From NCBI GenBank assembly GCA_964016885.1, contig OZ024741.1, positions 394,754,001-394,818,000 on the forward strand: a DNA stretch of 64,000 nucleotides. Reading direction: 5' to 3'. Each line of letters begins with the position of its first letter. The stretch's first letter is position 1. Shown here piece by piece: positions 1,880-51,797 of the stretch. The position numbers and the translations under genes were made by a program. Source of the DNA: Eledone cirrhosa (lineage: Eukaryota). The notes under the pieces are model-generated. The model saw only the letters and a list, made by a program, of their open reading frames with translations. It ran no database searches and had not been told where the DNA came from.

Positions 1880-3510
1880 TAAAAAGGTAGTGTCATTACC
1901 ACAGCAGAAGTCCAACGAGCTTTTGATTCCAGAGTCGGGCTAGATTGATACAAATTGAACCTTGAGCTGATCAATAGCGAAACACTTGGTTCCAAGAATT
2001 GCCTGATAAATGTAATACCCGTTTTCTGCAACTGGATATAGAAGACTACTACCCTTCTATCTCAGAGCCTCTACTGAAGGATGCACTTGCTTTTGCCAGG
2101 AACTTTACCACCATCACTGATGCTGAGCAGGATGTGATCCTCCACGCCTGCAAGATCTTTTTATACCACGAAGGGTCTTACTGGATTAATAAGAAGTCTG
2201 AGACTCCATTTAACGTCAGTATGGGAGCAAGTGACTCCGCAGAAGTTAGCAACCTGGTGGGCATGTATATCCTATACAACCTGAAGAATCATTTCACAGG
2301 CCTGACTGGAGGATTAATACCACGATAATGGCCTTTTTGCTTTGACAAGGTAAATCCCAGAACCACTGATGGGTTTTGGAAAAACTTATGCTCTTTCTTA
2401 CGTAATCTAGGTTTTAGAATAACCATAGAATCAAATATGACTAGGGCCAACTTTTTAGATGTCACTTTAGATTTAGATACTTCCCTCAATTACCCATACC
2501 ACAAACCTAATGAATCCCTTAGATACATAGATGTTAGTTTGAACCACCCCCAAAATATTACTGATAATTTAGTTAAAAGTGTCTCACTTAAAATTTCCAG
2601 TCTCTCAGCCAATGAAAACATGTTTAGTGCCTCTGCCCCTAATTACAATGAAGCCTTGCTCGCAGTGCCTTTAAAGAAAAGATTACCTATCTAGAAAACA
2701 CCCCAAGACCACTTAGGAGAAATAGGCATATGCAAATTAGTTGGTACAACCCTGCTTCAACAGAGAGTTATCTACACCAATAGCTAGGACTTTCTTCAAA
2801 TTTCTGAATATACACTTCCCAACACAACATAGGTACTACACTATTTTTAATAAGAATATGATAAGACTCTCCTATTCCACTACACCTAACTTAGCTAGGA
2901 ATATAGCTAACCTCAACAATGCTAAATTAAATAAGCCTACTACCTCCAAAACCCACCCATGGACGGGAACATTGTGCAACTGCCACAATAAGGAAGTGTG
3001 TCCACTCAAAAACAGATGCCTGATGAATGACATCGTATATAAATGCAATGTCATCTCAGGTATTGACAACAACAAAAAAATATATATCGGAATGACATCC
3101 AATAAATTTAAGACCCGGTGGTATACCCATAACCACTTGTTCAGAAGACCAGACAAATCTAACCAAACAACACTCACCTCCTATGTCTGGAACCTCAAGA
3201 GGAACTCCACTCTCTTCATGTTCAAATGGAAATTACTCCAGAAAGCGCGCTCATACATAGGTGGACACAAGTGTTGCGACCTTTGTATTTCGGAGAGCTA
3301 TGAAATACTATTTGCCAAGGGCCCGACACTGAACAAACTCTCTGAACACTGCCCGAACTGCATATACAAAAACTATGCAACATATAAATCCTGCAAACCA
3401 GTTCTTCCCCCATAACGATAGTTTAAAAAAACACCTCACTTGACATAATATCCCCTCCCTCACTATCCCACCCTACCCCCTATACCCTCTTTCGGTATGC
3501 CTCACAGTAT
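1880..3510 (+). mobile_element. Penelope-like retroelement, 5'-truncated and frameshifted (RT + GIY-YIG endonuclease)
   Basis: ORFs 1999-2328 (FLQLDIEDYYPSI, MGASDSAEV), 2437-2694 (NFLDVTLDL, YHKPN), 2741-3415 (CNC..CPL, IVYKC, YIGMT..FKTRW, CDLCISE). Confidence 0.92.
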
Positions 3511-3792: not shown

Positions 3793-4097
3793 ATAAATAG
3801 GCATCCCAGACCCGGCCCGAACCGGCATTAGTAAAGCAGCACCCACAAAATAATAAATAGGCATCCCAGACCCGGCCCGAACCAGCATTAGTAAAGCAGC
3901 ACCCACAAAATAATAAATAGGCATCCCAGACCCGGCCCGAACCGGCATTAGTAAAGCAGCACCCACAAAATAATAAATAGGCATCCCAGACCCGGCCCGA
4001 ACCGGCATTAGTAAAGCAGCACCCACAAAATAATAAATAGGCATCCCAGACCCGGCTCGAACCGGCATTAGTAAAGCAGCACCCACAAAATAATAAC
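3793..4097. repeat. 60-bp tandem repeat, 5 near-identical copies
   Basis: Unit ataaataggcatcccagacccggcccgaaccggcattagtaaagcagcacccacaaaata; only two substitutions seen across copies. Confidence 0.97.
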
Positions 4098-4723: not shown

Positions 4724-5959
4724 TTATAAAACGCCTCCAAACCCCGTGTCTGATGCGTCCACTAGCAGCGAAAGAGGAGCGCCAGACCTGAGGAAAACGA
4801 GCATGGAAGCGTTTGACAACATTTCCTTTAGGCGGTTAAAAGATGTTAATTCTTCCTCGTTTAGAGTGATCTCTTCGTTTTTGCGAGTCCGGTTACGAAG
4901 AAGGTCCGTGAGGAGTCTGGCTGCGTCGGAACAATGAGGGATAAAACGCCTATAAAAATTCACCAGACCGAGGAATTCACGCAGTTTCCGAAGTGATGTA
5001 GGTGCGGGAAAACTGCGGATAGCTTCTACTTTCTCGGGAAGTGGACGAATGCCGTCTTTATCGATGATGTGCCCGAGAAAGGACAGTGAAGGAACGCTGA
5101 GAAGGCACTTGCTGGGTTTGATGATGATACAGTACTCAGCCAAACGTTGGAAAAGGAGATCTAAGTGCTTCTCGTGTTCTTGCTCGGAAGTACTTGCTAC
5201 CAGCACGTCGTCAATATACGCGTATACAAAGGGTAGATCATGTAAGATGGTGTCAATAAACCGCTGAAAAGTTTGTGCAGCGTTGCGCAGACTGAACGGC
5301 ATTCGCAGAAATTCGAATAAACCGAACGGTGTTGTGATTACGGTCTTCGGAATATCTGCAGGCTCCATAGGTATCTGGTTATATGCACGCACCAAATCTA
5401 CCTTGGAAAAGATGCGTGCGCCTTGCAGAGAGGCAGAACAATCGTGCAGGTGAGGTACAGGGTAATTATCGGGCACTGTAGAATTGTTAAGTGCACGATA
5501 ATCCCCATATGGTCGCCAATCATTCTCGTTTTTTTGGGGAACAAGGTGTAGGGGTGCAGACCAGTTGCTGGAGGAAGGGCGAATGATTCCGAGGTCCAGC
5601 ATGTGTTGGAACTCCTGTTTGGCAATTCTCAATCGGTCTGGAGGCAGTCTCCTTGGTCGGGCAGCTGTGGGTGGTCCCTTTGTCTCGAAGTGGTGCGTGA
5701 CACTATGCTTAATGGGACCATCCTTAAATACCGGGCGAGTGATGTCTGGGTATTTCTGGAGATTGCCGTTGTACCGCGAAGGCTCTGACTGGCACATTAC
5801 AGGGCTCACTGTGGATTGCATCGTAAATATACCTCTCACAGTGAGGTTTGTGGTGGTGTCGATAAGCCTCCGGTTCTTCATATCCACCAGAAGGTTGAAG
5901 TGGTGGAGAAAATAGGCTCCTAGGATCGGGTCGGCAGGTCTGTCACGACGAACACCCAT
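4724..5959 (-). pseudogene. Gypsy pol fragment (end of protease, RT, start of RNase H); frameshifted at both ends
   Basis: ORF contains [41 protein letters not shown]. Confidence 0.9.
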
Positions 5960-6363
5960 TGAAAACGCCGCCTCAGGCCTAAATTGAGGGTCAGAGACTT
6001 CTCCCCGAAAGTCGGAATTGACGATTGATTCACTGCCTGCAGAAAGGATGGGGTTGGGTGTCTTTTTCCCGAGATCAGTGAAACCGGAATAACACTGACC
6101 TGGGCTCCTGTATCCACGAGGTATTGGATGCCTGTCGCCTGGTCGTTAATAAAAAATAGACGACTTTGTGAAAAGGCCTGGATCGACTGTTGCTGCGTCG
6201 CCGGTGTGTTTGAAAGGTCAAGTTCTCTACTTGATTTGAAAGGGCTTTAATTTGACCAGCCCGCTCTCTGATCATAGCCCGCAGCTCTGAAATCTCGGCC
6301 TCTGTCGTTTGTGACATGTCCATGTTGATATTTTCTTAGGTGTTGTCTGGTTGCGCGTTCGAC

Positions 6364-9739: not shown

Positions 9740-12700
9740 TATTTTAATATGTCAACACACAAGAATATACCAATACCAACTCAGGATTCTTACTGCATGC
9801 TTTTGATTGGCAGTGTCAATTCACTCGTCAGAAGATTAAAATGGTGAAACACCAAAGGACAGAAGGATCAAGAGCCCACTAATTTTTATCAGTTTAAAAC
9901 ACATAAAAGTTCTCCACACAATACATTGATGGATAATTTCGAAAATGAACTAATTAACATAAGAAATCTAACTCTCATATGAACAATTTCTTGAAGTATC
10001 TCAACTCTAATATAAACAAACTTAAAAAACATAAAAACTTATTTGTATTAGCTGGTAAAATAGAAAATGTGTATAGTGTAGACTTAACCACATATAAAGA
10101 GCTGTATAAGAACTACAAAAAAAAACTTTATAGAATAAATAAAGACATAAATCTCATAGCTAACAGACTCAACCTTGAGAGACGTACTGAAACTTATACC
10201 CACAAAACACCCAGATTTACTCTTAAGGACCATAAGGTAGATTTTAATAATAACCCCTCAATTAGGCTAATTCGCCCTTCCACATTTGACATAGGTACGA
10301 TCAGCAAAGAAACCTACATTAAATTTATTGAAAAACACAACCAAAGTGTTAGACTGGTTTACCAACCTCCAATATAAGAATAAATTAAACTTCTTACAAT
10401 TTGACATAGACTTATACTACTCTTCTATATCTCCTAATCTTTTAAACAGGGCCTTAATTGTGATTTAACTAGAGCTGAAATCGATATAATACTTACAGCT
10501 AAAAAAACCATAATAGAAATCGATGGTAACTATTGGACCCCGCCAAAATAAAACGCCCTAATAATTTCGACATCACTATGGGTTCAAGTGACTCAGCACA
10601 AGTCACTGACTTAGTAGGTATTTTCTTACTAACTAAGCTTAACCCTTTAGCATTCGCATTAATTTTCAAATGTCATGCTTATCTGTTCAAATTATTTTGA
10701 GTTAATCATACTCAAGAGGGTTATCAATTTTATTTGTTTGTAATTTTCTTAATTTTCTATGTGCAGACTTGAAATTTTGTCAGTAGATGTTTAAATATCA
10801 ATAATTTACAATTATATAATTTAACCTGATTTTTTGGTTAAATTTGACTTTTATGGGCAGGTGAAATTAATTAATAGGGGCATTTGAAGTATCAACCAGG
10901 TGCAAATACTGGTTTAATTTTAAATACGTTGTTTTCGGCATAATACTTGATATATAAGGATCACTAAACCTTATATCAGTGCTCCAGTAATTCCAGTCTT
11001 GGAAATTGTTTTATACTGAACATAATATTTATGGTAAAAAATGCTTGCATTTCCACAGCCAAACAGATCGGGTTTTCCTCGATTTGAAATCTGTTGTTGG
11101 GCATATCGATTAATCTCTTCTGCCACAACTTCAAAGAAAGTTTGAGGTAAAAACAAAAAGAAATAATCCAGTGCTTTAGCATCGGGAGCTAATGTGTGTT
11201 GTGGACCAGTATTTTGAATAAAATTGGGAACATATATTGGTGTGGTATTTTTCAACCACGTTGCTGTAATATTTTCAATGGCTTCCTGGAGATTTCCTTC
11301 GTTTTCACTTTCAAAACAACAATCATCATTGGATGAAATTTCAGAAATGTAAACATCTGATTCATTTGACAATAAATCATTAATATCATCTTTTGTTTTT
11401 TGTTCATTTTGAATGTTGTTGTGTGTAAAACCTTCAAAGTTGGTATTGCTACTTTCACAAGCCATGTTGATACACAAAAAATCTGTTCTACTTTCGTTAA
11501 AAAAACACGTGTTGTTTTTTAAGTTGTTTCACTATATTATGTGTTAATTTTCACGGTAAGGGCCTAATCTCACAGTAATCTCGAATTGACGAGATTTTGA
11601 TGACAGTATTATTTATTTTTAGAATGATATTTTAGTGTTATCGGCCGGTTTCGGGCAGTTTGAACAAATGAAGGGGAAATAATTTCGGCCAGTTTGAGGC
11701 AGTTTGAACACTAAAGGGTTAAAAGCATTTTCCCCAAATTCAAAAGGGGATTATATCGGAATGACGCCCTTTTCCCCATCAACAGAAATAAGAGAAATCT
11801 TGAGCTAACCAAAAAATGTCTTCATAAATTTTTTGAATACAACTTAAAAATCACAATAGATACTAATAATAAAATAGTGAATTTTCTTGATGTTAAGTTA
11901 AACTTAGAATCTGGTTTATATAAACTGTTCCATAAACCAGGTGAACACTTATTCTACCTAAATAGACTCTCTAACCATCCCAAATCAATACTAAACTCTA
12001 TAGTCAATAACATTTCCACCCATATTTCTAAATCGTCCTCTAACCAGGATATATTCAACCAGAGTGCTCAATACTATAATGAGGCATTAAACAGATCAAG
12101 TTATAGTGACAAAATAACATATATTGAAAACGCCCATATGAACAGAACTCGTATATAATTTTACATAAAATGACGATTCAAAGGCATAACTTAAGCAGTA
12201 ATAGAATTAATAAACCTGATAATCACTATAAACCATGAGGAAATAGTAATGGAAATTATAAATGGGCGAACGAACACCCACCTACAGAATTTAAGAGCAA
12301 AAAAACACAAAATAACCACATAGAGGATCATATAAGTACATATAACAATACATGTAATAGAAATAAATGAAAAAAGGAAAATCTCAACATTAATAACAAT
12401 ATAATTAACACTGAAATCCTAAATAGACGTTCATGCAACCAGAAGTATAAATCAAGAACTAATATAAATATTAATGTCCTTAATGACACCATAATAAACC
12501 TAAATCAAACTATACACAAGTAAGGACTCCTAAACCAAATCGCAGAAAACCCACTACATGATTCAACCTTCCTTTTAACAAGAACTTAGCCACCAACATA
12601 CCTAGAGTATTTTTAAATATCTTAGAGAAAAACTTCCCACCAACGCACTGCCATCATTCAATCATTAATATAAATCTCATACTCTACTACCCCTAATATA

Positions 12701-13260
12701 GCTAACTACATATTCTCCAGCAATAATAACAAATTAAAAATATATAATTATCCTCTTACTAATAATGATAATACTATAAAAACAAAGGATAATTAAGTAG
12801 GTAGCTTCCAAAATACCCTAACTCAAATTAATATACACAATTATAAACCAAATACTGACGTAATACGTAACAATAATAAAAAATATAACTGTAGAAACTC
12901 TGATACATGCCCTCTTAATAGTGAATGCATAACTAGAGGCATTATCTACCTATGCACTGTAACTAGTAGCAATAACAGTAAGATATACATAGGACCTACT
13001 TCTAACAGCTTAAAGTTCAAATAATATGTCTACTGCCATTCTTTCCGAAAAAAAGAACTTAAAAACTCAATATCACAATGGCACCTAAAGGAGACTAATA
13101 TAGAATACTCAATAGAATGGAACAAATTAAAGGTGACCCCTTCCTACTAACCAGGAAGAAAAAATGTAGTTTGTGTCTCAAAATATAAACTAAACATTCT
13201 TAACAGAAAATCTGAAATTCTCTCTACTTGTCCACATAAATTAACCATCTAAATTTTACA
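9740..13260 (+). mobile_element. Penelope-like element, nearly full length but degraded, interrupted by a piggyBac
   Basis: FTLKDHKVDFNNNPSIRLIRP (9979-10377); MGSSDSAQV near 10578; NFLDVKLNL (11877); CRNSDTCPL..IYLC..YIGPT near 12890-13000. Confidence 0.85.
10643..11718 (-). mobile_element. Internally deleted piggyBac DNA transposon
   Basis: TTAA TSDs at 10639-10642 and 11719-11722; TIRs ccctttagcattc / gaacactaaaggg; ORF 10971-11477 with acidic N-terminus and ALDYFFLFLPQTFFEVVAEEINRYAQQ. Confidence 0.92.
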
Positions 13261-13959
13261 AGTATTCAAATGATAATGCATGGAAAACTAATAATAAAAA
13301 TAAAAATGTATGTAATTCCTATAAGTATTTTACTAATTAAAATAAACTAGAGTAATAATTACACCCGTCTGTCGATGCTATAGGTAAACAAAAATTTAAA
13401 CTTAAGTGTTATTATTAAATTATTTAGGTAATGATATATAGTTAATCATATATAAATAAACTAATATCAATAGTTATGTATTATAGTCAAAACTTTCTTT
13501 ACAATCAGTACAAACATATGTGTTCTACATTATAAGAGTGCCTAGTCTAGACTTATATGCATTAGTAGAAGGTCACAAATTATCTGCACATTACACAGAT
13601 CAATTACTATACTTCAGGATCAATCACAAGGCTATAAGGAAAGTATAGTATCTAAGTTGGATCATAAACTGTATTAGAAAATGAAAATGAAAAGCAATGT
13701 GTACAATTGATCACGACCTCCTTACGGTTATTAATTGTGTTAGGTAACCTGTAAAAGATTACATAAATATTGTTAAAAAGAAATTAGATAGAGATAATTT
13801 CAGCTTAAGTGTGAATTTCATATGAAGAATACAAAAAGATGGTTTCTCGAGTTAGTACAGCTAAAATACTATGTCTAACATGAGAGGAAAGGTTTGGCTA
13901 CAGAGAACTGGGGTTATATATATATAAAATAAATTTTTTCGCTCTACATAGCTGAATAC

Positions 13960-14443
13960 AATAAATGTAATCTGAGTTTTTCCAATATTAATAATAACAT
14001 TCGATTCATTTGTAATTATGCAAACAGGCCTCATCTTTTTTATTTTAATTTGGCAAAGCCAGCCATTTATCGCTCGTATACAGGAAACTGACTGGCCAGT
14101 CTGCTGATATGAAAATCTGGCTGATCAGTGGATCTGCTAATATGCAGATCTGTATATTAGCAGCCAGTCTGCTAATATACAAATCAAGTCGATCAGTCAC
14201 TGTGTATTTTTGAAAATAGCATATATTTTCACTAGCTCTGACAGTTTGGCAGGTGAACAGGAGCTGTACTGATGAAGGGTGATACCCAGAAACATTAGTG
14301 TCTGCAGTTCTGTTCACATGCCAACACAAGAGCAAGAATGAAGGGTTCATTCTACTGACATGGCTTTAAAATTGAGGTTTGTTTGCATAATTGCAAACGA
14401 ATCGAATGTTATTAATATTCAAAAAACTCAGATTACATTTATT
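13960..14443 (+). mobile_element. Small non-coding element with ~80-bp terminal inverted repeats and an internal hammerhead
   Basis: 13960-14040 is the imperfect reverse complement of 14368-14443. Confidence 0.75.
14246..14324 (+). ncRNA. Type-I hammerhead ribozyme with extended stem I
   Basis: ttggca-g-gtgaaca-g-gagctgta CTGATGA a-gggt-gat-accc-a GAAAC attagt GTC tgcagttc-tgttcac-a-tgccaa; core intact, GUC site at 14300-14302. Confidence 0.88.
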
Positions 14444-14939: not shown

Positions 14940-17895
14940 AGAATTTAAGCAGTGTTTCTCTGAAGTCATATAAATGGACACAGGATCTGATCTCTCATTT
15001 ATAACTGAAGACATGACATTAAAATGTAACCTCAGTATCCAGCCATATCAAAATATTATTTCTATCTCAGGTAAAACACATTGTCAAATTACTTGTAACT
15101 CTACTATATTCAGCAAATTTATTTGTGATTAAATCTCTTGTGGTGCCTTTGATAACAGGCATGCATATTCTCCATTCTCACTGATCGGTATCTTTTCAAC
15201 TGGAGGACCAAAGCCTCCAATAGCCTACTGTCTCACTTTCTCTGCGATGACCTGCAAGAAATACACCCTCATTCCAGGAGTAGACATTAATAAACTGACG
15301 CCAAGTGCTATGCCTTCTCAATGCATAACAACTGATCCATTTATAGCTAAAGAATTATATCGCCTACTTAATGATGGAATCATAACTGACAGTCAAAGTC
15401 GTTGGTGTGGTCAATGTTTCGTTGTACAAAGATTGGTAGCTGACTACTCTAAAACCATAAATCTTTATCCACCACTTGATTCATATCCTCCTGCAAATAT
15501 CGATCACATCCTTCAACAAATGGGATGTAATAAAGTTTTCAGCAAGATTGATTTAAAGTCAGCATATCATCAAATCGAACTGAAGGAAAGAAATATGCCA
15601 CTTACAGTGTTTGAAGCTTGTGGACATTTATATCATTTCCATAGGTTACCTTTCGGGTGTACCAATGCAGTCCCCATTTTTCAATGAACAATTGATGATT
15701 TGATTAGCTCTAATGCATTGACCAAAACCTTCGCATATGTCAACAACATATATTTTCAGAAAAGATTTCCCAGAATATGACCACAATCTATTTCAGTTTA
15801 TAAAGGCAGCAAAGTTAGTAAAAATTACAGAGGACGACCCCTAATGTGAATACAGACTGACAAAACTAAATTTCTTGGGAAACAAAATAGAAAATGGTAA
15901 GATTAGACCAGATCCTGAACAGTTTAAAAGTTTTTTGGATTATCCAGTTCCAAATAAAATTCCTCAACTTAACAGCTTCGTTGGATTAGTTGCTTACTAC
16001 GCCAAATGGATTAAGGGATGTGCTAACTTGATCAGACCTTTAATACAAGCAAGAGATAACTGTGTGAAGTCAGATTGTCTCATTCTATCTAGAATGCGTA
16101 AACGCTGTCGAGCTCATTAAACAACAACTCAAGTCTGAATCACTAGCCTCGTATGGATACACTACTCGTGCTTAAAACTGATGCATCAGATGTAGCAATA
16201 GGAAGAACCTTGCATCAAGAAGGTAGACCTGTTGCCTTTATATCTAAGACACCGTCTAACTCAGAACAAAGGCCGTCAACTGTGGAACGCGAGGCACAGG
16301 CTATTCCTGAATGTTCTAAGAAATGGAAGCACATACTAAACATGGTGCCATTTTTCACAATCATAACTGATCAGAGATCAGTGGCCTACATTTTTGATAG
16401 TACTCCTCGAACAAAAAAAATGATTAAAATTACCAGATGGAAACTAGAACTGTCAGGATATCGCTTTGTCATATACAAACCCGGGTCTAAAGATAAGGCT
16501 GCTGACACTCTCTCAGATTGTGCTGTATTTTCTCTTAACTCACAGAACACATTTGCTACCTCTGCATGAAAGATTGTGCCATCCAGGTGTGATCTGGAAG
16601 ATCCGTTTCTGTCAATCTAAACATTTACCTTTCTCAATACGAGAAATCAAGGAGACCATTTCCCAGTGTAAAGTCTGCTAAGAACTGAAACCTCATTTCC
16701 ATAATTCAGTTCCTTCTAAGTTGATCACTGCAATGCATCTATGGGAAAGATTATCAATGGATTTCGTCGGCTCTCTTCCATCTTACATGAGTGAGAAATA
16801 TATATATTAGTTATAGTGGACAAATTTTCTAGACACTTGTTTGACTATTCATTTTTTTGATATGTCCTCAGAGACAGTCATTAAAAAACTAGAAAAATGA
16901 TTTTGTCTGTTTGGGGTTCCCTTGGCTATACATTTAGACAGAGGAGCACAGTTTGAAAGCAAATCTCTCAGACAATTTCTTCTGTTGAATAATATTGTTA
17001 AGACTTGCACAACACCCTATCCACTACAAAGAAATGGCTAGTGTGAAAGAATTAATGAAGTGCTCCTAAAAACATTAAATCTTGCACTCAGGAGTAAACA
17101 GTTAGATAATTACCAGTGGAAAAGAATGCTACCCCTGGCTTTATCTTGTATAAGAGGACTTCTTTGCACGTCAATGAACCAAACACCTCATAAACAAATT
17201 TTTAGCTTTCCCAGACAGTCCTCTTCAGGACAGACGTTACCTCAATATCTGCTCCAAAAGAACATGGAAGTCCTTAAAAGAATTCATGTATGAAATAAAA
17301 TAGATTATCTGATCAAAAGAAAAACCCTATTGGAAACTATTTCACCATACATGGCGCGTGTAAAAAAACTGGAAGGGGAACAGTGGAAACTATATCGATT
17401 AGAGATATCGCCCCTCTAACAACAGATTGTCAAATGCAAATAATAGAAGAGAATAATCTAGACAGATTTGGTGACCAACAACACAAAGACCACTCCGTCA
17501 ATAATCCCAAGGTCTCTGAAGATGTTATTTCAGAAAACGATGCATCTCTTACTACTAAACTGCCAGACAACGTCAATCCACAAATGTCAGAGGAAGAAAT
17601 TAGTCCAGAAATAAACAAATTTAGATCAATTCAAGGCTCATAGCTCAATAGTGAAATTCACACTCGTTCTGGTTAAATTATTAAACATCCTAAAAGAATC
17701 GATTTGTAATTGACATACTAGTACAACTTTCTTGGAACAAGGGGAAAATATTATGAAATCAGCTGCCAGCACATTAGTTAGTGCTGACTACTTAGTTACA
17801 TGTAAATCTGGCAACACAAATTGCAAGTGTCCATAATTTTGTATTGTCAATGAAGATTGGAATAAAGCCTTATAACTTCTTGTACATATAACACT
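14940..17895 (+). mobile_element. Degraded Gypsy LTR retrotransposon (PR-RT-RH-IN, PPT, probable 3' LTR)
   Basis: MDTGSDLSFI (~14975); FSKIDLKSAYHQI, RLPFGCTNA; TDASDVAIG; HERLCHPG..CKVC; IHLDRGAQF; purine tract aaggggaaaa ~17740; many stops. Confidence 0.88.
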
Positions 17896-25990: not shown

Positions 25991-26616
25991 AGAATATGTC
26001 AGCTAAGAATAATAATTGTTGCTGATCATTCAACAATACCACATTACCAACAAAAGGAGCCCTTTATAAGTCCTATTTAGCAGCTATGACTTCATATTTC
26101 AACACTTATCCACACCACATCTACGTTAGACATGTTTGTTTACATTGAATAAACGACTGGTAATGCATGTAATGTACCCTGGTCTCTATGTAATGTACCC
26201 TGCTTCACCCGTTCTTCCATTCTTTCCATGCCTGTCTCTTAGCCTTAATTACCTCATCTACCTTATTGTTCCACCATCAAGTCACTCTCCTCCTCCCTGT
26301 GGTCTTGCTCCAACCACAGATCTTATCTGTCACTTTTAGTAAATTATTTTTTAGGAACTCCCAGTGCGAAACCTACAGTCAGTAGGCACCTCTTAACCAA
26401 ATATACACCCCAACCCACTAGCCATACTCCACCCTCTCACTCTCACCAACACCACCCTTTCTCTGTAAAGTTATGTTGGTACCACAACATCCAGTCCAAA
26501 CTAATGAGGTTGTGTAGGTGTCACGACAAAAAAAAAACACACAGTCCACGCTGTAATGTGGCCGTGTAGCTAACAAGGTAAAAGGTTCCCAGTCCACACT
26601 GTAAATGTGGTTGGTG

Positions 26617-27520
26617 TTAGAATTTCTGGTCTATCGGCCAATGAAGATATCTTTAGTGCTTCTGCCCCTTACTACAACGATGCCCTCGTCCGCAGTAAAT
26701 TTAAAGAAAAGATTACTTATCTAGAAACCACCCCAAGACTACCTAGGAGAAATAGGTATAGGCAGATTAGTTGGTACAACCTCCCCTTCAATAGAGACTT
26801 TTCTACACCTATATCTAGGACTTTCTTCAAATTGCTGAATATACACTTCCCCACACAACATAGGTACCACACTATCTTTAATAAGAATATGATAAGACTC
26901 TCCTATTCCACTACACCTAACCTAGCTAGGAATATAGCCGATCTCAACACTACAAAATTAAATAAGCCTACTACTTCCGAAACCCATCCCCGGACGAGAG
27001 CTTTGTGCAACTGCCAAAATAAGGAAGCCTGCCCACTCGAAAACAAATGCCTGACAAATGACATCGTATATAAATGTGATGTCATCTCAGGCACTGGTGA
27101 CAAGAACAAAAAGACTTATATCGGAATGACTTCCAACAATTTTAAGACCCGGTGGTATGCCCATACCCACTCAGTCAGAAGACCGGACAAATCCAATCTG
27201 ACAACATTCGCCTCCTATGTCTGGAACCTCAAGAGGAACTCCACCCCTTTCACGCTCAAATGGAAATTACTCCAGAAAGCGCGCTCATGCATGGGAGGAC
27301 ACAAGTGTTGTGACCTTTGTATTTCAGAGAGCTATGAAATACTATTTGCCAAGGGCCCGACACTGAACACTGCCCGAATTGCATGCACAAAAGCTTTGCA
27401 ACTTAAAAAATATCTTAAGCCAGTGTTGAAGCCAGATGGATAAAAAAATTAAAACAAAACCCCACTCGACAAAATATCCCCTCCACCTCCATCCCACCCT
27501 ACCCCTACCCGCCTCACGGT
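26617..27520 (+). mobile_element. Penelope-like element, 5'-truncated; same family as 1880-3510
   Basis: ORF 26607-27443 closely similar to 2437-3415 (IRLSYSTTPNLARNIA, YIGMTSN.FKTRWY). Confidence 0.92.
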
Positions 27521-27789: not shown

Positions 27790-29570
27790 ACATATATCGT
27801 TTAATCATAATAATCAATTACACGCTTCTCCATGCAATCGAGATGTCCTTCATGCATTTGCTGTTGATTATGAGAACGGTCGCCTCAGATGAAAATCGAT
27901 ATATTTGATATGCCGCTGGCAAGAAAACACACATCCTAGTGCCTGTGTGGCCAGTATACATATGAGTTCCTTGAAGGGTTTGCCAACTGTCACATTTGTT
28001 AAAAAAGCTATCAACGAAAAAAGACGAAAAGAACAAAAAACTGTGTGCCGCCAAAACCCAGTAGACAGTAGAGCAATAAAAGGAGCTCTGAGGGAGAGTG
28101 GGGTATATATTTAGTTGACAACCACCTATAGACAACAACAACAATGACAATAACATCAAACCGCCGACCAAAGTTGCCCACACTGGTCGCAATAGTCGTG
28201 GTGATACCACTACTCTATTGACAACAACTAAAACAACAGCAAAAACACAGACCAACGTCATGTATACAGGTTGTAGTCGTCAGTGACGGTACCACCCTGT
28301 CGACAATAAACAGCGATAACGCCAAATCAATAAAAAGGAGTTTAGAGGTAGGTGGGTACACAGAGTTGGTGGTATCAATCACCATGATCATAAACAGTAA
28401 CAACAATGGCAACGGCAACAAGCCCCAACACCGCCGATCACCCACCCCGTTCGTCGCAGTAGTGGTGGTATCATCTATATCAGTATTAAGCCATTGGTAA
28501 CACCAATAACAACAACAAGACCAGTGATGACCCCACCACGGCGACGGCAGCAACAGGAAAAAAGCCACGCTTCCATGAAAAATAAACTAACCACAATAGT
28601 AGTCCGTTGAAACAAGGAAGTGAAAATGGTGTAGAAACATAGATGGGTATTTATATATATATAAACAAATACATTCCCAGTTAATACAGTCCTCTCTAAC
28701 ACTGTAAGGCACAAGACCAGCGATGATCATAGCATTCAGTCCCAACTACAGTGGCAACAATACTATCAAAAGGGCTGTTAGGCCATGGAAGAGAGTTACG
28801 GGAAGCGAAAGTAGGGACAGGAACAAGTAGATAAGAAATGAGAACACATATAGAGAACACAATAATAAAAGAACAGGACAAAAATACATAAAAAACAACA
28901 GTAGGTATATAAACAGAGGAATAGGGAACAAAGGACAAGAAACAAGTACACATAGAGACTACAGGTGTGCAAATAAGATATCCAAGGTTCGCCTGACGTT
29001 GGGGTTGCCGCGTGGCCATGCCCGGCTTCCACGGGCAAGTTTGCAATAGTCTTCAACTAGCACAACTACGTTGTTAGTCTGTACAGTTTGAGGAAGGTTC
29101 CAGAAGATCTGTGGAGGCACGGGCTGTAATTGTAGAAACCCCAGTAACTGCCCCCTGGAGGGTAGGTGCCTCGGCAGTGGCTTAGTATATGAATGTAGGG
29201 TGAATACCAACAACCATACCTTCACCTATATCAGAGCCACAGCTGATAAATTTAAGGAACGCTGGTACAATCATTGCCACACCTTTAAGAGGGCTTATAA
29301 TAAACACAGCACTTCTCTCGGAAGTAGTGTGGCGTCTCAAACATAACGTAGAATTCACCTTGTCGTGGTCCAAGGTAGCCTCAGCCCAACTCTACGGAGG
29401 GGGTGGACATGACTCATGCGATTTGTGTGTCACCGAGATTATGGAAATAATCAAGAGGGGAGCTCAAGTTATCAATAGAAGGATTAACCTCTTCAGCACC
29501 TGCCTCCACAGATCTTCTGGAACCTTCCTCAAACTGTACAGACTAACAACGTAGTTGTGCTAGTTGAAGA

Positions 29571-35881: not shown

Positions 35882-38680
35882 TCAAGGATCAATTTCCTCC
35901 TCGTCTCTCTGCATGTGGAAGTCTGCTGTCCAGGTTGGTGGTCTACGACATCGTTGCGATCTTCGTAGTATTGGGGCAGGGCTCTGAGTTTCCACCTCGT
36001 CTTGGGTTTCCTCTTCCTCGGAGTCCGTCGACACAGTGACTCTTCTTACATCCAGGACATGACGTGGTACCCCGTCCACGGACACATTGTTCTTTGAATT
36101 TACGGCCGTCACTGTTCCCCTTCCCCATTGAGATGTGCAACGTGCATCTGGGGGCTTAACCCAGACTTCTTCGTCCACCTGCACGAATGCACTCTCTTTC
36201 CCTACTGGCCGTTGTGGTGGCGTGCACAGGTGCCTCCACTCGTATTTGAATACTGCTCTGTGTGGCACCGATTCCTCGACCTGTCCAACCCGAGGAGACA
36301 TGTTGTACCAGAACACTGCCTCCATTGGTGAGACATGGCCCCGCTCCGCCATTGCCTTGATCGTCCGGTGGTGTCGCTCCACAATTCCATTCCCGCTCGG
36401 CCTGTGCGCCGCTCTGAAGAAACGGTTCACCTTCCATCCATCGAGCATCTCCCTCAGTGCCTCCGAGTCGAACGCTGCGCCGTTGTCCATCAGCAGTTCG
36501 TCCACAGGGCCCCGCTCCAAGAACACCTCTCTCAACGTCCGCACGATTTCCTCGGCCGTTTCAGTCCTCATCTCCCTCCATATCGCCATTCGACCTGGTC
36601 CACAGTCGACCATCGAGAGGTACGTTCCCTGCCGGTAGTGCGTCACATCCACCGCTAATCGCTTCCAGTCGCGATCTACCGGGAGGCTTCCCGTTTCGTG
36701 TACACCCGGGGCGGGATCAATGGACTGACATCGGACGCAGCCTCTAACCACTCCCTGAACACTGTGTCTGCTAACGTCCGGGTCGATTCTCCTGGCTAGG
36801 AACAGGCTCCTATCAACCCCTTCAGATCCGACTCAGTCAGCCGACACACAGCAGCTATCTCATCCTCTACCTCCTCCGGCGCTCCCATCCAGGCTTTCTT
36901 CACCCTAGTTAATATGTCCGCCCTGTTTTTCTCTGAGGGCACGAAAACTACGCTCAGCCTCAGGTCGAACTCGGTAGCCAACTCTCCTAAAGTTCCCAGG
37001 CGGCGCTTTATCAGCATCTCCGCCGCGCCTCTCGTTCGCACTGGTGAGCACTGATCTTACCCATCCGAGAACAGTAGCCGAGTCGGTGTGTATCTCGATG
37101 GTGTGCAGCCCCCACCACAGGGCGAGGTTCACCCCTCTCAACACTGCGTCCAGTTCGGCCACATTGATGTGATTGCAGTCGTCCTTCTTTCTAAGCCAGG
37201 CTGCATCCTCGACCTCAACAACTCCTATCTCCAACGTGACACCCAGCGCTATGCTGCTGGCATCGCACCACACGGTCCCGCTCTGTGATTTGGGAACATA
37301 CCAGCGTCCCCGCACTGGGTCGTCGGCCTTCACCCTTCCCACGATCTCCTGCAACATGGCCACCGTCCTCTCTCCCACTCTGTCACTCCAAGTCACTCCT
37401 CCCGCTTGTCTCTTGACATAGCTGCATGCCGTCCGGAGCCACCCAGCGATCGGGTAGTGACCCACCAGCTTTCCGCACACCGAGAAAAGCTCCCGCCTAC
37501 TCATACTTGGGCCCAGTTCCGGAACTTCGTTTCCCCTCTGGAATACCAAAACGCCTGTCCTGTCTCGCCACAGCCTAAGTCCCAGCGCGGCTCCTCCCTC
37601 CAATGCTTCTGACGGCTTCGCAGTCAGTCCGTACCCCTGTAAATGGCTCGTGACCTCCGCCGCCGACACCACCGACTCGTCCACTAAGATGTCGTCAATG
37701 TAGGAGTTAGTAACCCACTTTATCTTGTCAGCCTTCCCCAGAACGGTCTTGAGGACCGCCGCCATGATCTTCGGTGCGGAGCTCAGCCCGAAACCGAGCC
37801 TGGTCAGGCAATATGTCCGGCCCTTATACCTGACCAGCTGATACCGCCAGAGCTTCTCAGCTATATGCAACTGCAAGTAAGCCGACTTTAGGTCAACGAT
37901 CGCTGAACCCCCTGTCATGCGTCTCCACTCACGCAGAGTTTCTCCGCAGATATCCGTGACCTCGCCACCCGTGTGGCATGACACGTGTTCGTTCAGCTCC
38001 CGATAGTCCAGCACCGGCCTCACCTTGCTCTTCGTGGGTTGCACCACCGCCATTAACGGAAATACTCCGCACTTCAGCTCCTCCTTCCAGGGAAGCAGTA
38101 TGCCCTCTTCGATCCATCTCTCTACTTCTCGCTCGAACTTACTCCTAACGTTTCCCTTCAATGTGTGTTGATAGCAGCCCACTTTGGTCTTCAGTGTTGG
38201 TGGTTCTCCCTTCCAGTACCACTCAACAACCCATCGCTGCCCATCAAACACGGCCTTGAAGCCTTTGTCCTGCACAGTGTAAGCGGGGTATTCCTCCTCG
38301 TGGGCCTTCTGGTTCTCATGACGTGCACTCACTGCGCATGCCGATGCAGCGGCGCCAAACGACACACCGAGGTTGTCCACCGTGACGCCTCCTAAACGGC
38401 CAATCGCGTCCATGCCCATAACCATGCCGATCCCATCCACCACACTGTCTACTACGATGGCCGAAAGCTTTAACCTCCTTCCCCGTACCGCTATTTCCAC
38501 CTCGCTGCGACCTCAGCATCCGATTTTCCTGCCGTCGACTGCCCTTACACTGCTCTTCCTTCCCCACCTCTGCGCCACCTCTGCGCCACCCCCACGGTCA
38601 CCAGTGTCGTCGTACAGCCCGTGTCCACGAGGGCTCGCTGTGGCTTCCCCCTCACGAAGACTTCCACCATGGGCAGCGCC
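35882..38680 (-). pseudogene. Gypsy pol (protease-RT-RNase H-integrase), broken by a few frameshifts
   Basis: VRPVLDYRELN, VDLKSAYLQ, YIDD, WCDASS, HINVAEL, TDSATV (36905-38500); CVRC, AVDVTH, MDNG, GNGIVER (35882-36751). Confidence 0.92.
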
Positions 38681-38681
38681 G

Positions 38682-39441
38682 CTACTCGTAAGGGGCAACT
38701 ACCGGCGCAGTAGTTCCCCTTGGATCGTTTCCCTGGTCGCAGTTAGTAGCGATGTGGCCTGGTCGCTTACACCGGTAGCAAATTATCTCCGGCCTCAACT
38801 CTCTACAGTCTCTAGCCATATGCGGGCCCTGGCAACGAAAACAGCGCCCTCTAAACGTTCGCGTGCGACCGCGTGCCAAGGTTGCCTCCCTTTCACTGTT
38901 TCGTTGCCAGGTGTCCTGAGCCTCCGTAGTTGCTATCGCCGCAACACTCTTTGGCATCTTCTGCTATGATCCGGGCTTGTTCCACCAGTGAACGCATTTC
39001 CATCTCTTTATAACCCGGGACTTGCTGCAGCCTCACCGCTATGTCGTCTGGAAATCCATTAATGAACGCCAACTGCACCGTGCGTTCGCATTCCGCCTGA
39101 TAACCAGCCAACATGGCCAACCGCCTTATTTCTGCGGCGAAAATGTCGACGCGTTCACCATTCCACCTGATTCTCGCCAGCTTAGCAAAAGCTGCCAACG
39201 GTCCCTCGGCGAATGCATCTATCAGACGCCGCTCAATCTTCTGCGCATCTCTTTGGCTGTGCTCATCCAACTCAAGGAAGAGTACCAGCGCGTCTCCCTT
39301 GAGGTAGAGTGCCATTAGGCCAGCCACATCCTCTATCTTCTGCAAGCTTGCGACCAGCCGAACTTTCAGCAGCCAAGCGATTACATCACCCTCCCCGGTA
39401 AATGCCCTGATGGCTTCGCTCGTCCGTAGTCTTGTCGCCAT
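38682..39441 (-). pseudogene. Gypsy gag with two CCHC zinc knuckles, one frameshift
   Basis: ORF 38893-39441, continued by CFRCQGPHMARDC and CYRCKRPGHIATNC in 38682-38957. Confidence 0.88.
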
Positions 39442-43659: not shown

Positions 43660-45147
43660 ATCATCACCATCATCATCGTTTAACTTCCATCTTCCACGCT
43701 TGCATGGGTTTGGACGGGAGTTTTCCCATTTGAGGCAAGATTGGTTGTCCTGCTCATATAGGACTGTCTGGCGGGTTTTCTACGGCTGGGGGCCCTTCCT
43801 AACACCAACCACGTTTACAGTGTGGACTGGGAGGTTTTTACCGTGTTACCTACATGGTCACATTACAGCGTGGACTGTGTGTTTTTTTGTGGTGACACCT
43901 ACACGACCTCATTTGTTTCGGACTGGATGTTGTGGTACCAACATAACTTCACATTTAAGGGGGTGGTGTGGATGGGGTGGGGGTAGTGGGACAGGGTGTA
44001 TTTTTGTTAGAGGTGCCTACTGACTGTAGGTTTCGCTTTGTACTTAGGCAAAGCGGGTCTTCTGTATTACTGTGTAGCGCTAAAGATCTCGGTCCAGTGA
44101 CTACCGTCTATTTTTATCGCCCTGCATTTTTTATACAGCTGTAGTCTTTCATGCGCATCACGTGACCGTACCAACGTAGCCTTCTCTCGAGTAAATAACA
44201 TATAATCCCTCTTATTCCTAATTTCTCCCTTAGTTCGTTTATGCTTTGCCGTTCACGTATATTACTATTACACATCCAGCGGAGCATGCAAGCTTCGTTC
44301 CTCTCCAGTCTGCGCAGATCCTCTGCACACAATGCCCAGGTCTCACTGCCATGTAACATTGCTGTTCGTATGCAGACATCATACAGTCTGCCTTTCATTT
44401 TTAGAGAGAACCCTTTAGCGGCCAATAGTGGTATAAGCTCTCTGAACTTTTTCCATCCCGTTCTGACTCTAGCTACTGTACTTTCAGAGCAGCCTCCCCC
44501 ACTGCTGATTTTGTCACCCAGGTAACGGAAGGTGTCCACTATTTCTCTAGAACCATGTGTGCAATGGAATGAGCTAGTATTCTGTGGGCACTTGCTGCTA
44601 CTTATTGCACCAGAGCACCGGCCACATATAAAATCTATATTCTTAGTTAGCTTACCTGTGGTCCCACTACATCTTTTATGCACCCATACTTTGCATTTGG
44701 GACATAAAATGGACTTTCTGCCTACTCCTTTCCTACACACTGAGCATGGCCACTTCCCAGATGGGACCGGTGCCCTATTTTCCTTCCTACAAACTAGAAC
44801 TTTAGTCTTAGACAAGTTAACTTTAAGGCCTTTTGATTCTAGGCCTTGCTTCCATGTTTGGAATTTCTTGTCTAATTCAGCCATTGATTCAGCTATGAGC
44901 GTTAGATCATCTGCATATAGGAGTTCCCATGGGCAGCCGGTCTTGAACTCCTCTGTTATAGCCTGAAGGGCAATAATAAATAGTAGGGGGCTAAGAACGG
45001 AGCCCTGATGAACACCAACTTTTACGCTAAACTCTTCACTATATTCGTTGTTAATTCTAACCTTGCTGACTGTTTCTTTATACATGGCTTGTATAGCTCT
45101 CACAAGCCATTCATCAACACCTAGTTTTCTAAGAGCCCACCAGATAA
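43660..45147 (-). mobile_element. RTE LINE, 5'-truncated, with 3' UTR and (GAT)n tail
   Basis: ORF 44114-45280 (true RT from IIWWALRK); near-identical to 50053-51797; ~80-bp deletion at 44100. Confidence 0.93.
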
Positions 45148-45148
45148 T

Positions 45149-45185
<37 letters not shown>

Positions 45186-45658
45186 AACATATATATGTCT
45201 ATATATATATACTTATATATATATGCATATGTATATATGCAAACATATATATGCCTATATATATATATATATGTTTGCATATATACATATGCATATATAT
45301 ATAAGCATATATATATATATATATTTATTAAAATAACAGATTAAAGTTTACGCAAAGAAACGCTGCTTTTACCCTTAACGGGATCTTCTGAAACTAAAAA
45401 AATCAATCTGTGAACGCAGAAGTAAATATTTCGAAAAACATTGCAACCGAAGGAAGACAGGAAGACGATACTTTAGTTTGTATATATATGTGTGTATGAA
45501 TATATACATATGCATATCATCATCATCATCATCGTTTAACGTCCATTTTCCATGCTAGCATGGGTATATATATATACATATATTTAATATAGAAAAGCTT
45601 CTACAGAACTAGAACTGTTTCATTCATGAGAAACCATCATAAGCTGACTGTCCAAGTA

Positions 45659-49496: not shown

Positions 49497-49992
49497 ATCA
49501 TCATCATCATCATTTAACGTCCATCTTCCAGGCTAGCATGGGTTTGGACGGGCATTTTCCCACTTGAGGCAAGAGTGGTTGTCTTGCTCGCATAGGACTG
49601 TCTGGCAGGTTTTCTCCGGCTGGATGCCCTTCCTAACACCAACCACGTTTACAGTGTGGACTGGGAGGTTTTTACCATGTTACCTACACGGCCACATTAC
49701 AGCGTGGACTATGTGTTTTTTGTTATGACACCTACACGACCTCATTTGTTTCGGACTGGATGTTGTGGTACCAACATAACTTTACATCGAAAGGGGGTGG
49801 TGTGGATGGGGTGGGGGTAGTGGGACGAGGGTGTATTTTGGTAAGAGGTGCCTACTGACTGTAGGTTTCGCTTTGCACTTAGGCAAGGCGGGTCTTCTGT
49901 ATTACTGTGTAGCGCCAAAGATCTCGGTCCAGTGACATTGTCTTGGAGAGGTGTAAGTGTATGAGGTCGGAATTTATCATGTCGTCCTAGGT
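49497..49992 (-). mobile_element. RTE 3' end (last RT codons, 3' UTR, tail)
   Basis: Reverse complement of ~51180-51790. Confidence 0.9.
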
Positions 49993-50001
49993 TTTTCTGA
50001 A

Positions 50002-50052
<51 letters not shown>

Positions 50053-50053
<1 letters not shown>

Positions 50054-51797
50054 GTAAACCCCTATACTTAGCTTTTGTTGACTTGGAGAAAGCCTTCGAC
50101 AGAGTCCCCCGTTCCATTATCTGGTGGGCTCTTAGAAAACTAGGTGTTGACGAATGTCTTGTGAGAGCCATACAAGCCATGTATAAAGAAACAGTCAGCA
50201 AGGTTAGAATTAACAACGAATATAGTGAAGAGTTTAGCGTAAAAGTTGGTGTCCATCAGGGCTCTGTTCTTAGCCCCCTACTATTTATTATTGCCCTTCA
50301 GGCTATAACAGAGGAGTTCAAGACCGGCTGCCCATGGGAACTCCTATACGCAGATAATCTAACGCTCATAGCTGAATCAATGGCCGAGCTAGAGAAGAAA
50401 TTCCAAACATGGAAGCACGGCCTAGAATCAAAAGGCCTTAAAATTAACCTGGCTAAGACTAAAGTTCTAGTTTGTAAGAAAGAAAATAAGGCGGCGGTCC
50501 CTTCCGGGAAGTGGCCATGCTCAGTGTGTAGGAAAGGCGTAGGTAGAAACTCCATTTTGTGTCCCAAATGCAAAGTATGGGTGCATAAAAGATGTAGTGG
50601 GATCACAGGTAAGCTAACTAAGAACATAGATTTTATATGTGGCCGGTGCTCTGGTGCAATAAGTAGCAGCAAGTGCCCACAAAATACTAGCTCTTTCAAC
50701 TGCGCAGAGGGTTCTATAGAAATAGTGGACAGCTTCCGTTACCTGGGTGACAAAATCAGCAGTGGGGGAGGGTGCTCTGAAAGTACAGTAGCTAGAGTCA
50801 GAACTGGATGGAAAAAGTTCAGAGAGCTTATACCACTATTAGCCGCTAAAGGGTTCTCCCTAAAAATGAAAGGCAGGTTGTATGATGCTTGCATACGAAC
50901 AGCAATGTTGCATGGCAGTGAGACCTGGGCATTGTGTGCAGAGGATATACGCAGACTAGAGAGGAACGAAGCTTGCATGCTCCGCTGGATGTGTAATAGT
51001 AATATACGTGAATGGCAAAGCATAAACGAACTAAGGAAAAAATTAGAAATAAGAGGGATCAGATGTTGTTTACTCGAGAGAAGGCTACGTTGGTATGGTC
51101 ACGTGATGCGCATGAAAGACGACAGCTATATAACAAAGTGCAGGGCAATAAAGATAGATGGTAGCCACGGAGTAGGCAGACCCAGGAAAACCTGGGACGA
51201 GCTGATAAATTCCGACCTCACACACTTACACCTCTCCAAGACAATGTCACTGGACCGAGACCTTTGGCGGTACTCAGTAACAGAGAAGACCCGCCTCACC
51301 TAAATACAAAGTAAAACCTACTAGTCAGTAGGCATCTCTAACAAAATACACCCCCGTCCCACCCCATCCACACCGCCCCCTTCAATGCAAAGTTATGTTG
51401 GTGCCACAACATCCAGGCCGAAACAAACGAGATCGTGTAGGTGTCACGACAAAAAAACACACAGTCCACGCTGTAATGTGACCATGTAGGCAACTCGGTA
51501 AAAACCTCCCAGTCCCACACTGTAAATGTGGTTGGTGTTAGGAAGGGCATCCAGCTGTAGAAAACACGCCAGACAGTCCACGCTGTAATGTGGCCGTATA
51601 GGCAACACGGTAAAAACCTCCCAGCCCCACACTGTAAATGTGGTTGGTGTTAGGAAGGGCATCCAGCTGTAGAAAACCCGCCAGACAGTCCTATGCGAGC
51701 AAGACAACCACTCTTGCCTCAAGTGGGAAAACCCCCGTCCAAACCCATGCAAGCGTGGAACAGGGATGTTAAATGATGATGATGATGATGATGATGA
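50053..51797 (+). mobile_element. RTE LINE, 5'-truncated, RT frame open to its stop
   Basis: SKPLYLAFVDLEKAFD...QGSVLSP...YADN (catalytic DD changed to DN), Cys-rich PHD-like insert, stop at 51303, (GAT)n tail. Confidence 0.95.

What the first reader, a model, noticed from the sequence alone, without database searches (positions are those of the whole stretch)
13960..14443. MITE-shaped non-coding element carrying an intact hammerhead ribozyme
Seen: 484 bp, ~80-bp inverted ends, no meaningful ORF. It contains a complete hammerhead (CUGAUGA/GAAA/GUC) whose stem I extends ~21 bp with a bulge and a mismatch, and stem III is near-palindromic. Established: PLE pLTRs and retrozymes carry minimal type-I hammerheads with palindromic stem III that work as dimers; described retrozymes are direct-repeat or tandem elements. 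Inference: a non-autonomous PLE-mobilised ribozyme element with inverted termini that would be mis-annotated as a MITE.
Basis: partly seen in the sequence, partly recalled or inferred. Interest (0 to 1): 0.75.

Follow-up and report, generated by a model that had tools for sequence, protein, structure and literature searches.

The report
Penelope-type hammerhead repeat mimicking a MITE
This is one copy of an abundant, protein-less 437-base repeat that carries a predicted self-cutting hammerhead RNA motif; its inverted ends differ from copy to copy and were likely left by a Penelope-type retrotransposon enzyme copying the RNA into both ends of a DNA break, so it is likely a new member of the known animal retrozymes rather than a new kind of element.

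Summary
The hammerhead motif and the inverted ends are real, but the ends are not fixed termini. The copy belongs to a family with a 437-nt head-to-tail unit (912 exact core matches in a 3-Gb genome). Of 199 loci, 132 have two back-to-back arms, with 129 different joints. Arms end at two fixed sites about 36 nt apart, mostly beside (TA)n; 76 of 82 classifiable two-armed insertions use one site each. The two arms share subfamily alleles (60% against 15% by chance). Partial tandems, an inverted truncated arm and a 30-40-nt tail are the published footprint of Penelope-like elements (PMC8557442, PMC11167929); non-coding hammerhead tandem units are known as non-LTR retrozymes (PMC7229834, 10.64898/2026.07.22.740005). 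Cleavage, expression and circular RNA are untested, and no coding partner sharing the sequence was found. This scan has already noted the same kind of element on other DNA, in this genome and others. Verdict: new member of a known kind; modest interest.

The parts
13915..13926 (.). Short (TA)n tract at the left boundary, likely the target
   Evidence: sequence; 216 of 269 arm ends at the two fixed sites have (TA)4 or more within 30 nt
13922..13959 (-).
   Evidence: blastn to the unit of locus L024, 82% over 38 nt
13960..14033 (-). Inverted, 5'-truncated arm (unit positions 365-437)
   Evidence: 93% over 73 nt to the reference unit
14034..14442 (+). Direct arm (unit positions 27-437), almost one monomer, ending at fixed end site E1
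   Evidence: 93% over 413 nt; family architecture
14095..14197 (+). Internal imperfect repeats and hairpins of the unit (33-35-nt period)
   Evidence: repeat families D1, D2, I6, I12
14246..14324 (+). Type I hammerhead motif: stem I 14246-14268 with 14303-14324; CUGAUGA 14269-14275; stem II 14277-14287; GAAA 14289-14292; short palindromic stem III 14292-14301; predicted cut after 14302
   Evidence: all 12 core letters intact in 43 of 59 copies from loci not picked by the core pattern
14355..14442 (+). 3' structured domain (predicted three hairpins closed by a helix with the tail); likely the signal read by the Penelope-type enzyme; E1 falls in the loop of the last hairpin, E2 just behind the closing helix; here cut short at E1
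   Evidence: fold of the complete domain in locus L030, z -5.72, 0 of 200 shuffles; the role is inferred

Best explanation
The feature is one two-armed copy of a dispersed, non-coding 437-nt tandem-unit repeat with a predicted type I hammerhead, likely copied in trans by the reverse transcriptase-endonuclease of a Penelope-like element, and its inverted ends are likely a by-product of each insertion. Shown: tandem unit, copy number, two fixed 3' ends 36 nt apart, (TA)n flanks, variable 5' ends and inversion joints, one end site per arm, allele sharing between arms. Inferred: the enzyme (probably a dimer) cuts both strands of a (TA)n tract, binds the structured 3' domain of one RNA that is longer than one unit or circular, and primes cDNA from each DNA end, one at E1 and one at E2. 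Both cDNAs stop at variable points and are joined head to head. In the window copy the E1 cDNA ran 411 nt to position 27, almost to the E2 site, and the E2 cDNA ran about 110 nt. The hammerhead would cut only part of the RNAs, mainly when two units pair their palindromic stem III, releasing 437-nt monomers that could be circularised.
For: 912 exact matches to the 39-nt core, 0 for the reversed control; 4,138 first-look candidates, 40 scored. Two-armed: 50 of 84 loci picked by the core pattern, 46 of 64 picked by the junction pattern, 132 of 199 in all, with 129 distinct joints. Of 331 arm ends, 136 lie at E1, 133 at E2, 62 elsewhere. Of 132 two-armed loci, 82 have both ends at a fixed site: 76 are E1+E2, 3 E1+E1, 3 E2+E2, against 41 mixed expected, p 8e-17. 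Minor alleles at 15 diagnostic sites are shared between opposite arms in 116 of 193 cases (60%; control mean 15%, maximum 25% in 200 draws) and between tandem units in 64 of 103 (62%; control 16%, maximum 31%). Protein-coding RT+GIY-YIG elements of the same genome show the same anatomy: stop codon, hammerhead 354-407 nt later, an end about 120 nt further on running into (TA)n (L160) or a roughly 40-nt extension (L155, L156, L164). Literature: partial tandems, inverted truncated copy, 30-40-bp tail often at one end only (PMC8557442, passages); both strands cut and extended, two internal start sites that bound the tail, predicted dimer (PMC11167929, parts 1-2 of 4). 9 of 199 loci hold two complete cores in tandem, 8 of them 432-443 nt apart.
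Against: No coding partner that shares the unit's sequence was found: 50 GIY-YIG loci (30 of 150 listed, plus 20 picked for long frames) and 28 loci of a C-rich family share nothing with it beyond two inserted copies. The one apparent hybrid (L235-L238) is a head-to-head chimera with a decayed core. The core is not clearly better conserved than the rest of the unit: 3.9% against 5.7% divergence, 1,119 of 10,000 random 12-site sets as low. 5' ends do not pile up sharply at the cut: 15 of 324 at 293-297 against 6.5 expected, but windows at 280-284 (13), 307-311 (13), 298-302 (11) and 337-341 (11) are nearly as high. The free fold of the monomer hides the core. Allele sharing could also come from conversion between neighbouring arms or from age-matched subfamilies. 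In PMC11167929 the hammerhead was not needed for insertion in vitro; in 10.64898/2026.07.22.740005 only 1 of 9 tested dimers cleaved. The window copy itself has no (TA)n on its right side, and its two arms differ by a 3-nt indel.
Confidence: 0.85

Rival explanations
1. The unit is the pseudo-LTR of a protein-coding Penelope-like element, and the copies are its heavily 5'-truncated insertions.
For: Coding elements of this genome have 3' regions of similar size and layout; only 150 of 10,596 GIY-YIG candidates were scored.
Against: Position 437 runs straight into position 1 of the same unit (886 exact junctions); arms reach 822 nt and wrap round the unit; no co-linear coding frame in 120 loci or 34 loci. 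Neighbouring PLE fragments belong to unrelated families that share the microsatellite target.
Confidence: 0.08
2. It is a MITE or another fixed-end element (DNA transposon derivative, or DIRS-like) that captured a hammerhead.
For: In the window the two ends are 88% complementary over 73-74 nt and the whole folds back (z -17); 24 of the 29 best-scoring loci are also two-armed.
Against: Arm lengths and joints differ in nearly every copy (129 of 132); 34 of 84 core-picked loci have one orientation only; tandem units occur; the two outer ends are different sites of the unit.
Confidence: 0.02
3. The element is a Penelope passenger as in the best explanation, but the hammerhead is an inactive relic and templates are plain read-through transcripts of partial tandems.
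For: A.A mismatch next to the core, competing fold 6.2 kcal/mol lower, no significant extra conservation, no sharp 5' pile-up, no arm of two full units among 331.
Against: All 12 core letters are the family majority; a mismatch at the base of stem II also occurs in hammerheads of coding elements here; arm lengths fall off just where cDNA would pass a hammerhead (38 to 14 across 200 nt; 19 to 10 to 3 across 600-650 nt), although hairpin stalling explains this as well as cleavage. This rival overlaps the best explanation except for the ribozyme step.
Confidence: 0.3

Closest known systems
Animal non-LTR retrozymes (Cervera and de la Pena 2020, PMC7229834: passages and parts 2 and 4 of 6 read; Li, Clavereau and Pollet 2026, 10.64898/2026.07.22.740005: parts 1-3 of 5 read)
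   Same: Non-coding unit of 150-450 nt, GC 38%, one type I hammerhead per unit, tandem units, short palindromic stem III suited to dimer cleavage, highly self-paired monomer (circular fold z -8.7), Penelope-like elements present in the genome.
   Different: Copies are mostly 0.3-1.5 units and never two full units in 331 arms; two-armed inverted insertions dominate. 'Inverted' has 0 occurrences in PMC7229834. RNA and circles are not shown here; kinship to a known pseudo-LTR was not found.
Endonuclease-bearing Penelope-like elements and their insertion footprint (Craig et al. 2021, PMC8557442, passages; Frangieh et al. 2024, PMC11167929, parts 1-2 of 4; PMC8969392, passages)
   Same: 5' truncation, partial tandems, inverted truncated copy, 30-40-nt tail often at one end, microsatellite or AT-rich target, two internal start sites downstream of a hammerhead.
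   Different: No reading frame. The near-strict one-site-per-arm pairing is counted here; Frangieh et al. saw no difference in start site between the strands in vitro.
Hammerheads of PLE pseudo-LTRs (Cervera and de la Pena 2014, PMC4209133, passages)
   Same: Extra nucleotide between A9 and G10.1, G10.1-C11.1 pair, small palindromic helix III.
   Different: Long stem I (21 bp) and short stem II, closer to the canonical than to the minimal form; a second extra A between C11.1 and G12.
MITEs (definition recalled, not from a call)
   Same: Short, non-coding, many copies, inverted ends in single copies.
   Different: Ends are not fixed; tandem units and 5' truncation point to reverse transcription.

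Membership tests
non-LTR retrozyme | Short non-coding unit (150-450 nt, low GC) with one type I hammerhead | tested here: met
   437 nt between cut sites, GC 0.38; no Pfam match for the antisense frame
non-LTR retrozyme | Tandem organisation with at least two complete hammerheads at some loci | tested here: met
   9 of 199 loci; 2 same-strand pairs 437 nt apart among the first 100 listed of 912 matches; no longer array seen
non-LTR retrozyme | Self-cleavage | not testable with these tools
   folding and 5'-end counts are inconclusive
non-LTR retrozyme | Expression as linear and circular RNA | not testable with these tools
   needs RNA data or a northern blot
non-autonomous Penelope-like element | 5' truncation, partial tandems, inverted truncated arm | tested here: met
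non-autonomous Penelope-like element | Optional 30-40-nt tail between two 3' end sites | tested here: met
   269 of 331 arm ends at E1 or E2
non-autonomous Penelope-like element | AT-rich or microsatellite target | tested here: met
   216 of 269 such ends beside (TA)n
non-autonomous Penelope-like element | 3' sequence shared with an autonomous family | tested here: inconclusive
   none among 78 PLE loci examined; only 150 of 10,596 candidates scored
MITE | Fixed terminal inverted repeats and uniform length across copies | tested here: not met
   129 distinct joints in 132 loci; 67 of 199 loci without an inverted arm
MITE | Fixed short target-site duplication | tested here: inconclusive
   flanks are mostly (TA)n, which hides any duplication; not counted formally
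minimal PLE hammerhead | Short helix I (4-5 bp), long helix II, helix III nearly absent | tested here: not met
   21-bp stem I, 3-4-bp stem II, 3-bp stem III, against PMC4209133 passages

The most novel reading that the evidence does not exclude
A Penelope-type enzyme dimer holds one small ribozyme-made RNA circle and primes it from both ends of a (TA)n break with a fixed division of labour (one subunit at E1, the other at E2), so the thousands of genomic copies are direct footprints of circular retrozyme RNA being reverse transcribed, the step of the retrozyme cycle that has only been proposed.
Probability: 0.25. Interest if true: 0.6.

Novelty: new member of a known kind. Interest (0 to 1): 0.3.

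Why it matters
For annotation: single copies look like MITEs, but the family is a retro-element passenger. For mechanism: thousands of short copies make the Penelope footprint countable. The one-site-per-arm rule (76 of 82) and the allele sharing between arms tie the two start sites seen in vitro for an anole element to one RNA copied from both DNA ends, and the 437-nt unit would be a compact substrate for testing this. The class, the footprint and the proposed link to Penelope-like elements are already in print, and this scan has noted several sister families, so the gain from this copy is incremental.

Tried and rejected
Rfam: no hammerhead model matched. No RNA holder listed among public runs; three contig runs laid show presence only. 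Partner search: GIY-YIG loci, tblastn of 11 PLE frames against family loci, all-against-all comparison of flanks (output cut, head and tail seen), and two loose-end motifs (0 matches; 2 matches). The two matches led to a decayed 85%-identical hammerhead piece joined head to head to a C-rich PLE; the 39 other places listed for that family begin beyond the hammerhead part and 28 fetched loci lack it, so it was rejected as partner. A second abundant PLE type with a C-terminal GIY-YIG, present in the window, shares no sequence either. Idea that a tRNA-like SINE borrows the unit's 3' end and travels on its own: rejected, since 29 of 30 such loci have unit sequence directly upstream and the SINE carries its own target duplications. 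Idea that the direct arm always stops at the other arm's start site: not significant (15 of 75 against 8 of 75, p 0.17). A genome-wide count of tandem dimers is missing; dimers were counted only in fetched loci. The script stopped at its last table, and the missing test was run. Rows dropped: 21 duplicate or overlapping loci before the counts before; the samples come mostly from contig C1 and were picked by exact motifs, which favours younger and longer copies. Literature searches; none showed this family or a count of end-site pairing, but subscription journals, Repbase and preprint supplements were not searchable, and no supplements were read.

Full report
Observation. With the core held open, stem I has 21 bp, stem II 4 bp and stem III 3 bp (-31.0 kcal/mol); the free fold pairs the core away and is 6.2 kcal/mol lower; the ten letters of stem III pair with a second copy at -8.8 kcal/mol. 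The region folds better than all 200 shuffles. The loose motif alone is weak (6 matches against 1.23 expected), and Rfam has no match. The inverted arms are 73-74 nt at 88%. The only long frame has no Pfam match.

The family. The window lies in a 3.0-Gb genome. The 39-nt core has 912 exact matches. Using the real unit of locus L024 as ruler (437 nt, cut after position 294), copies resolve into head-to-tail pieces. The window copy is positions 365-437 plus 1-36 on the minus strand (14033 down to 13922), joined to 27-437 on the plus strand (14034-14442). The 'terminal inverted repeat' is therefore the unit's own 3' end seen twice, and the true left edge is about 35 nt further left than reported. 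Full monomers are a median 92% identical to L024 (79-96%, n = 98), so the burst is not very recent.

Architecture, on 199 non-duplicate loci from four differently picked sets. Two back-to-back arms: 132, with 129 different joints; one orientation only: 67. Of 331 arm ends, 136 are at E1 (position 437), 133 at E2 (positions 20-45) and 62 elsewhere; 216 of the 269 fixed-site ends have (TA)n beside them. Following a lead from earlier scan notes, I tested the pairing: 76 of 82 insertions with both ends at a fixed site use one site each, against 41 expected; the other 50 two-armed loci have at least one end elsewhere. The window copy follows the rule. Opposite arms share minor alleles in 116 of 193 cases against a control mean of 15%, which fits one template molecule, though conversion or age-matched subfamilies could contribute. 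The longest arm is 822 nt; none of 331 reaches two units. Nine loci hold two complete cores in tandem. The 3' domain that spans both end sites folds into three hairpins closed by a helix (z -5.72); a hairpin just upstream has one compensatory change, A-U to G-C, in 43 segments against 241 with A-U, probably one event.

Is the ribozyme active? Not shown. 43 of 59 copies keep all 12 core letters, but the core is not significantly better kept than random sites. 5' ends are three times denser just downstream of position 280 than upstream (1.68 against 0.58 per nt), with a mild peak at the cut (15 against 6.5 expected) that other windows nearly match. Arm lengths drop where cDNA would cross a hammerhead. 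Partial cleavage and stalling at a 21-bp helix both predict this.

The partner. The genome is rich in RT plus GIY-YIG elements, and one family shows the same layout of hammerhead, first end, optional tail and (TA)n. None of 78 PLE loci examined shares sequence with the unit except as inserted copies. The enzyme's class is thus inferred from the footprint; its identity is open.

Mechanism. Shown: the anatomy above. Inferred: a Penelope-type enzyme cuts both strands of (TA)n, primes one cDNA at E1 and one at E2 on an RNA longer than one unit or circular, and the two truncated cDNAs are joined head to head. Untested: dimer cleavage and circularisation. Confidence 0.85 for the mobilisation model, about even for real cleavage, 0.25 for circles as the main template.

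Comparison. Craig et al. (PMC8557442, passages) describe partial tandems, an adjacent inverted truncated copy that makes inverted repeats flanking the unit, and a 30-40-bp tail often at one end. Frangieh et al. (PMC11167929, parts 1-2 of 4) show extension of both strands from two internal sites that bound the tail, and that the hammerhead is dispensable for insertion in vitro. Cervera and de la Pena (PMC7229834) define animal non-LTR retrozymes and propose PLEs as their mobiliser; Li et al. (10.64898/2026.07.22.740005) link them to pseudo-LTRs and report monomer-rich families. The element meets the sequence-level retrozyme and non-autonomous PLE tests and fails the MITE test. No paper on this family appeared in six searches, and the scan held no look-alike by sequence, but it holds several unrelated families of the same design. 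Earlier notes call the genome octopus-like; I did not test this.

Verdict. Real, explained, and a new member of a known kind. Interest 0.3.

Noticed in passing
unit position 402/403 (window about 14408); e.g. L067, L207, L234: A 187-nt tRNA-like SINE sits in the loop of one 3' hairpin in many copies: 575 exact junctions genome-wide, 15 of 84 core-picked loci. The 5' junction varies and target duplications resemble those of solo copies. Occupancy is 15 of 157 such sites against 23 of 574 similar flank sites, a mild enrichment.
   Followed up: yes
L235-L238 (G000:C25, about 5.634 and 7.155 Mb): Duplicated locus with a decayed, 85%-identical hammerhead piece joined head to head to a truncated C-rich PLE; a contig with the same 11 differences has depth 644 in run X4, far above other contigs there. 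The run's type is not on record.
   Followed up: partly
window 2741-3415, 11934-13243, 26574-27443, 29116-29530: Remnants of a PLE type with a C-terminal GIY-YIG (weak Pfam hits; tblastn); one ends about 680 nt left of the finding.
   Followed up: partly
window 15133-16569 and 4724-6145: Broken reverse transcriptase and RNase H frames of LTR-retrotransposon type; described only.
   Followed up: no
window 35882-38969: GC-rich stretch with RVT_1, DUF7047 and RVT_3 hits in one frame and an integrase-core hit in the next; an unusual combination, not examined.
   Followed up: no
window 44114-45340 and 49957-51303: Two copies of a frame with reverse transcriptase followed by a PHD finger.
   Followed up: no
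window 3796-4096: Five tandem copies of a 60-nt unit behind a PLE remnant.
   Followed up: no
L155, L156, L160, L162, L161, L169, L258: Hammerheads of coding PLE families in this genome often have a mismatch (U.U or A.A) at the base of stem II.
   Followed up: partly
L157, L166: Coding PLEs also occur as back-to-back inverted pairs of frames, the same two-armed layout at larger scale.
   Followed up: no
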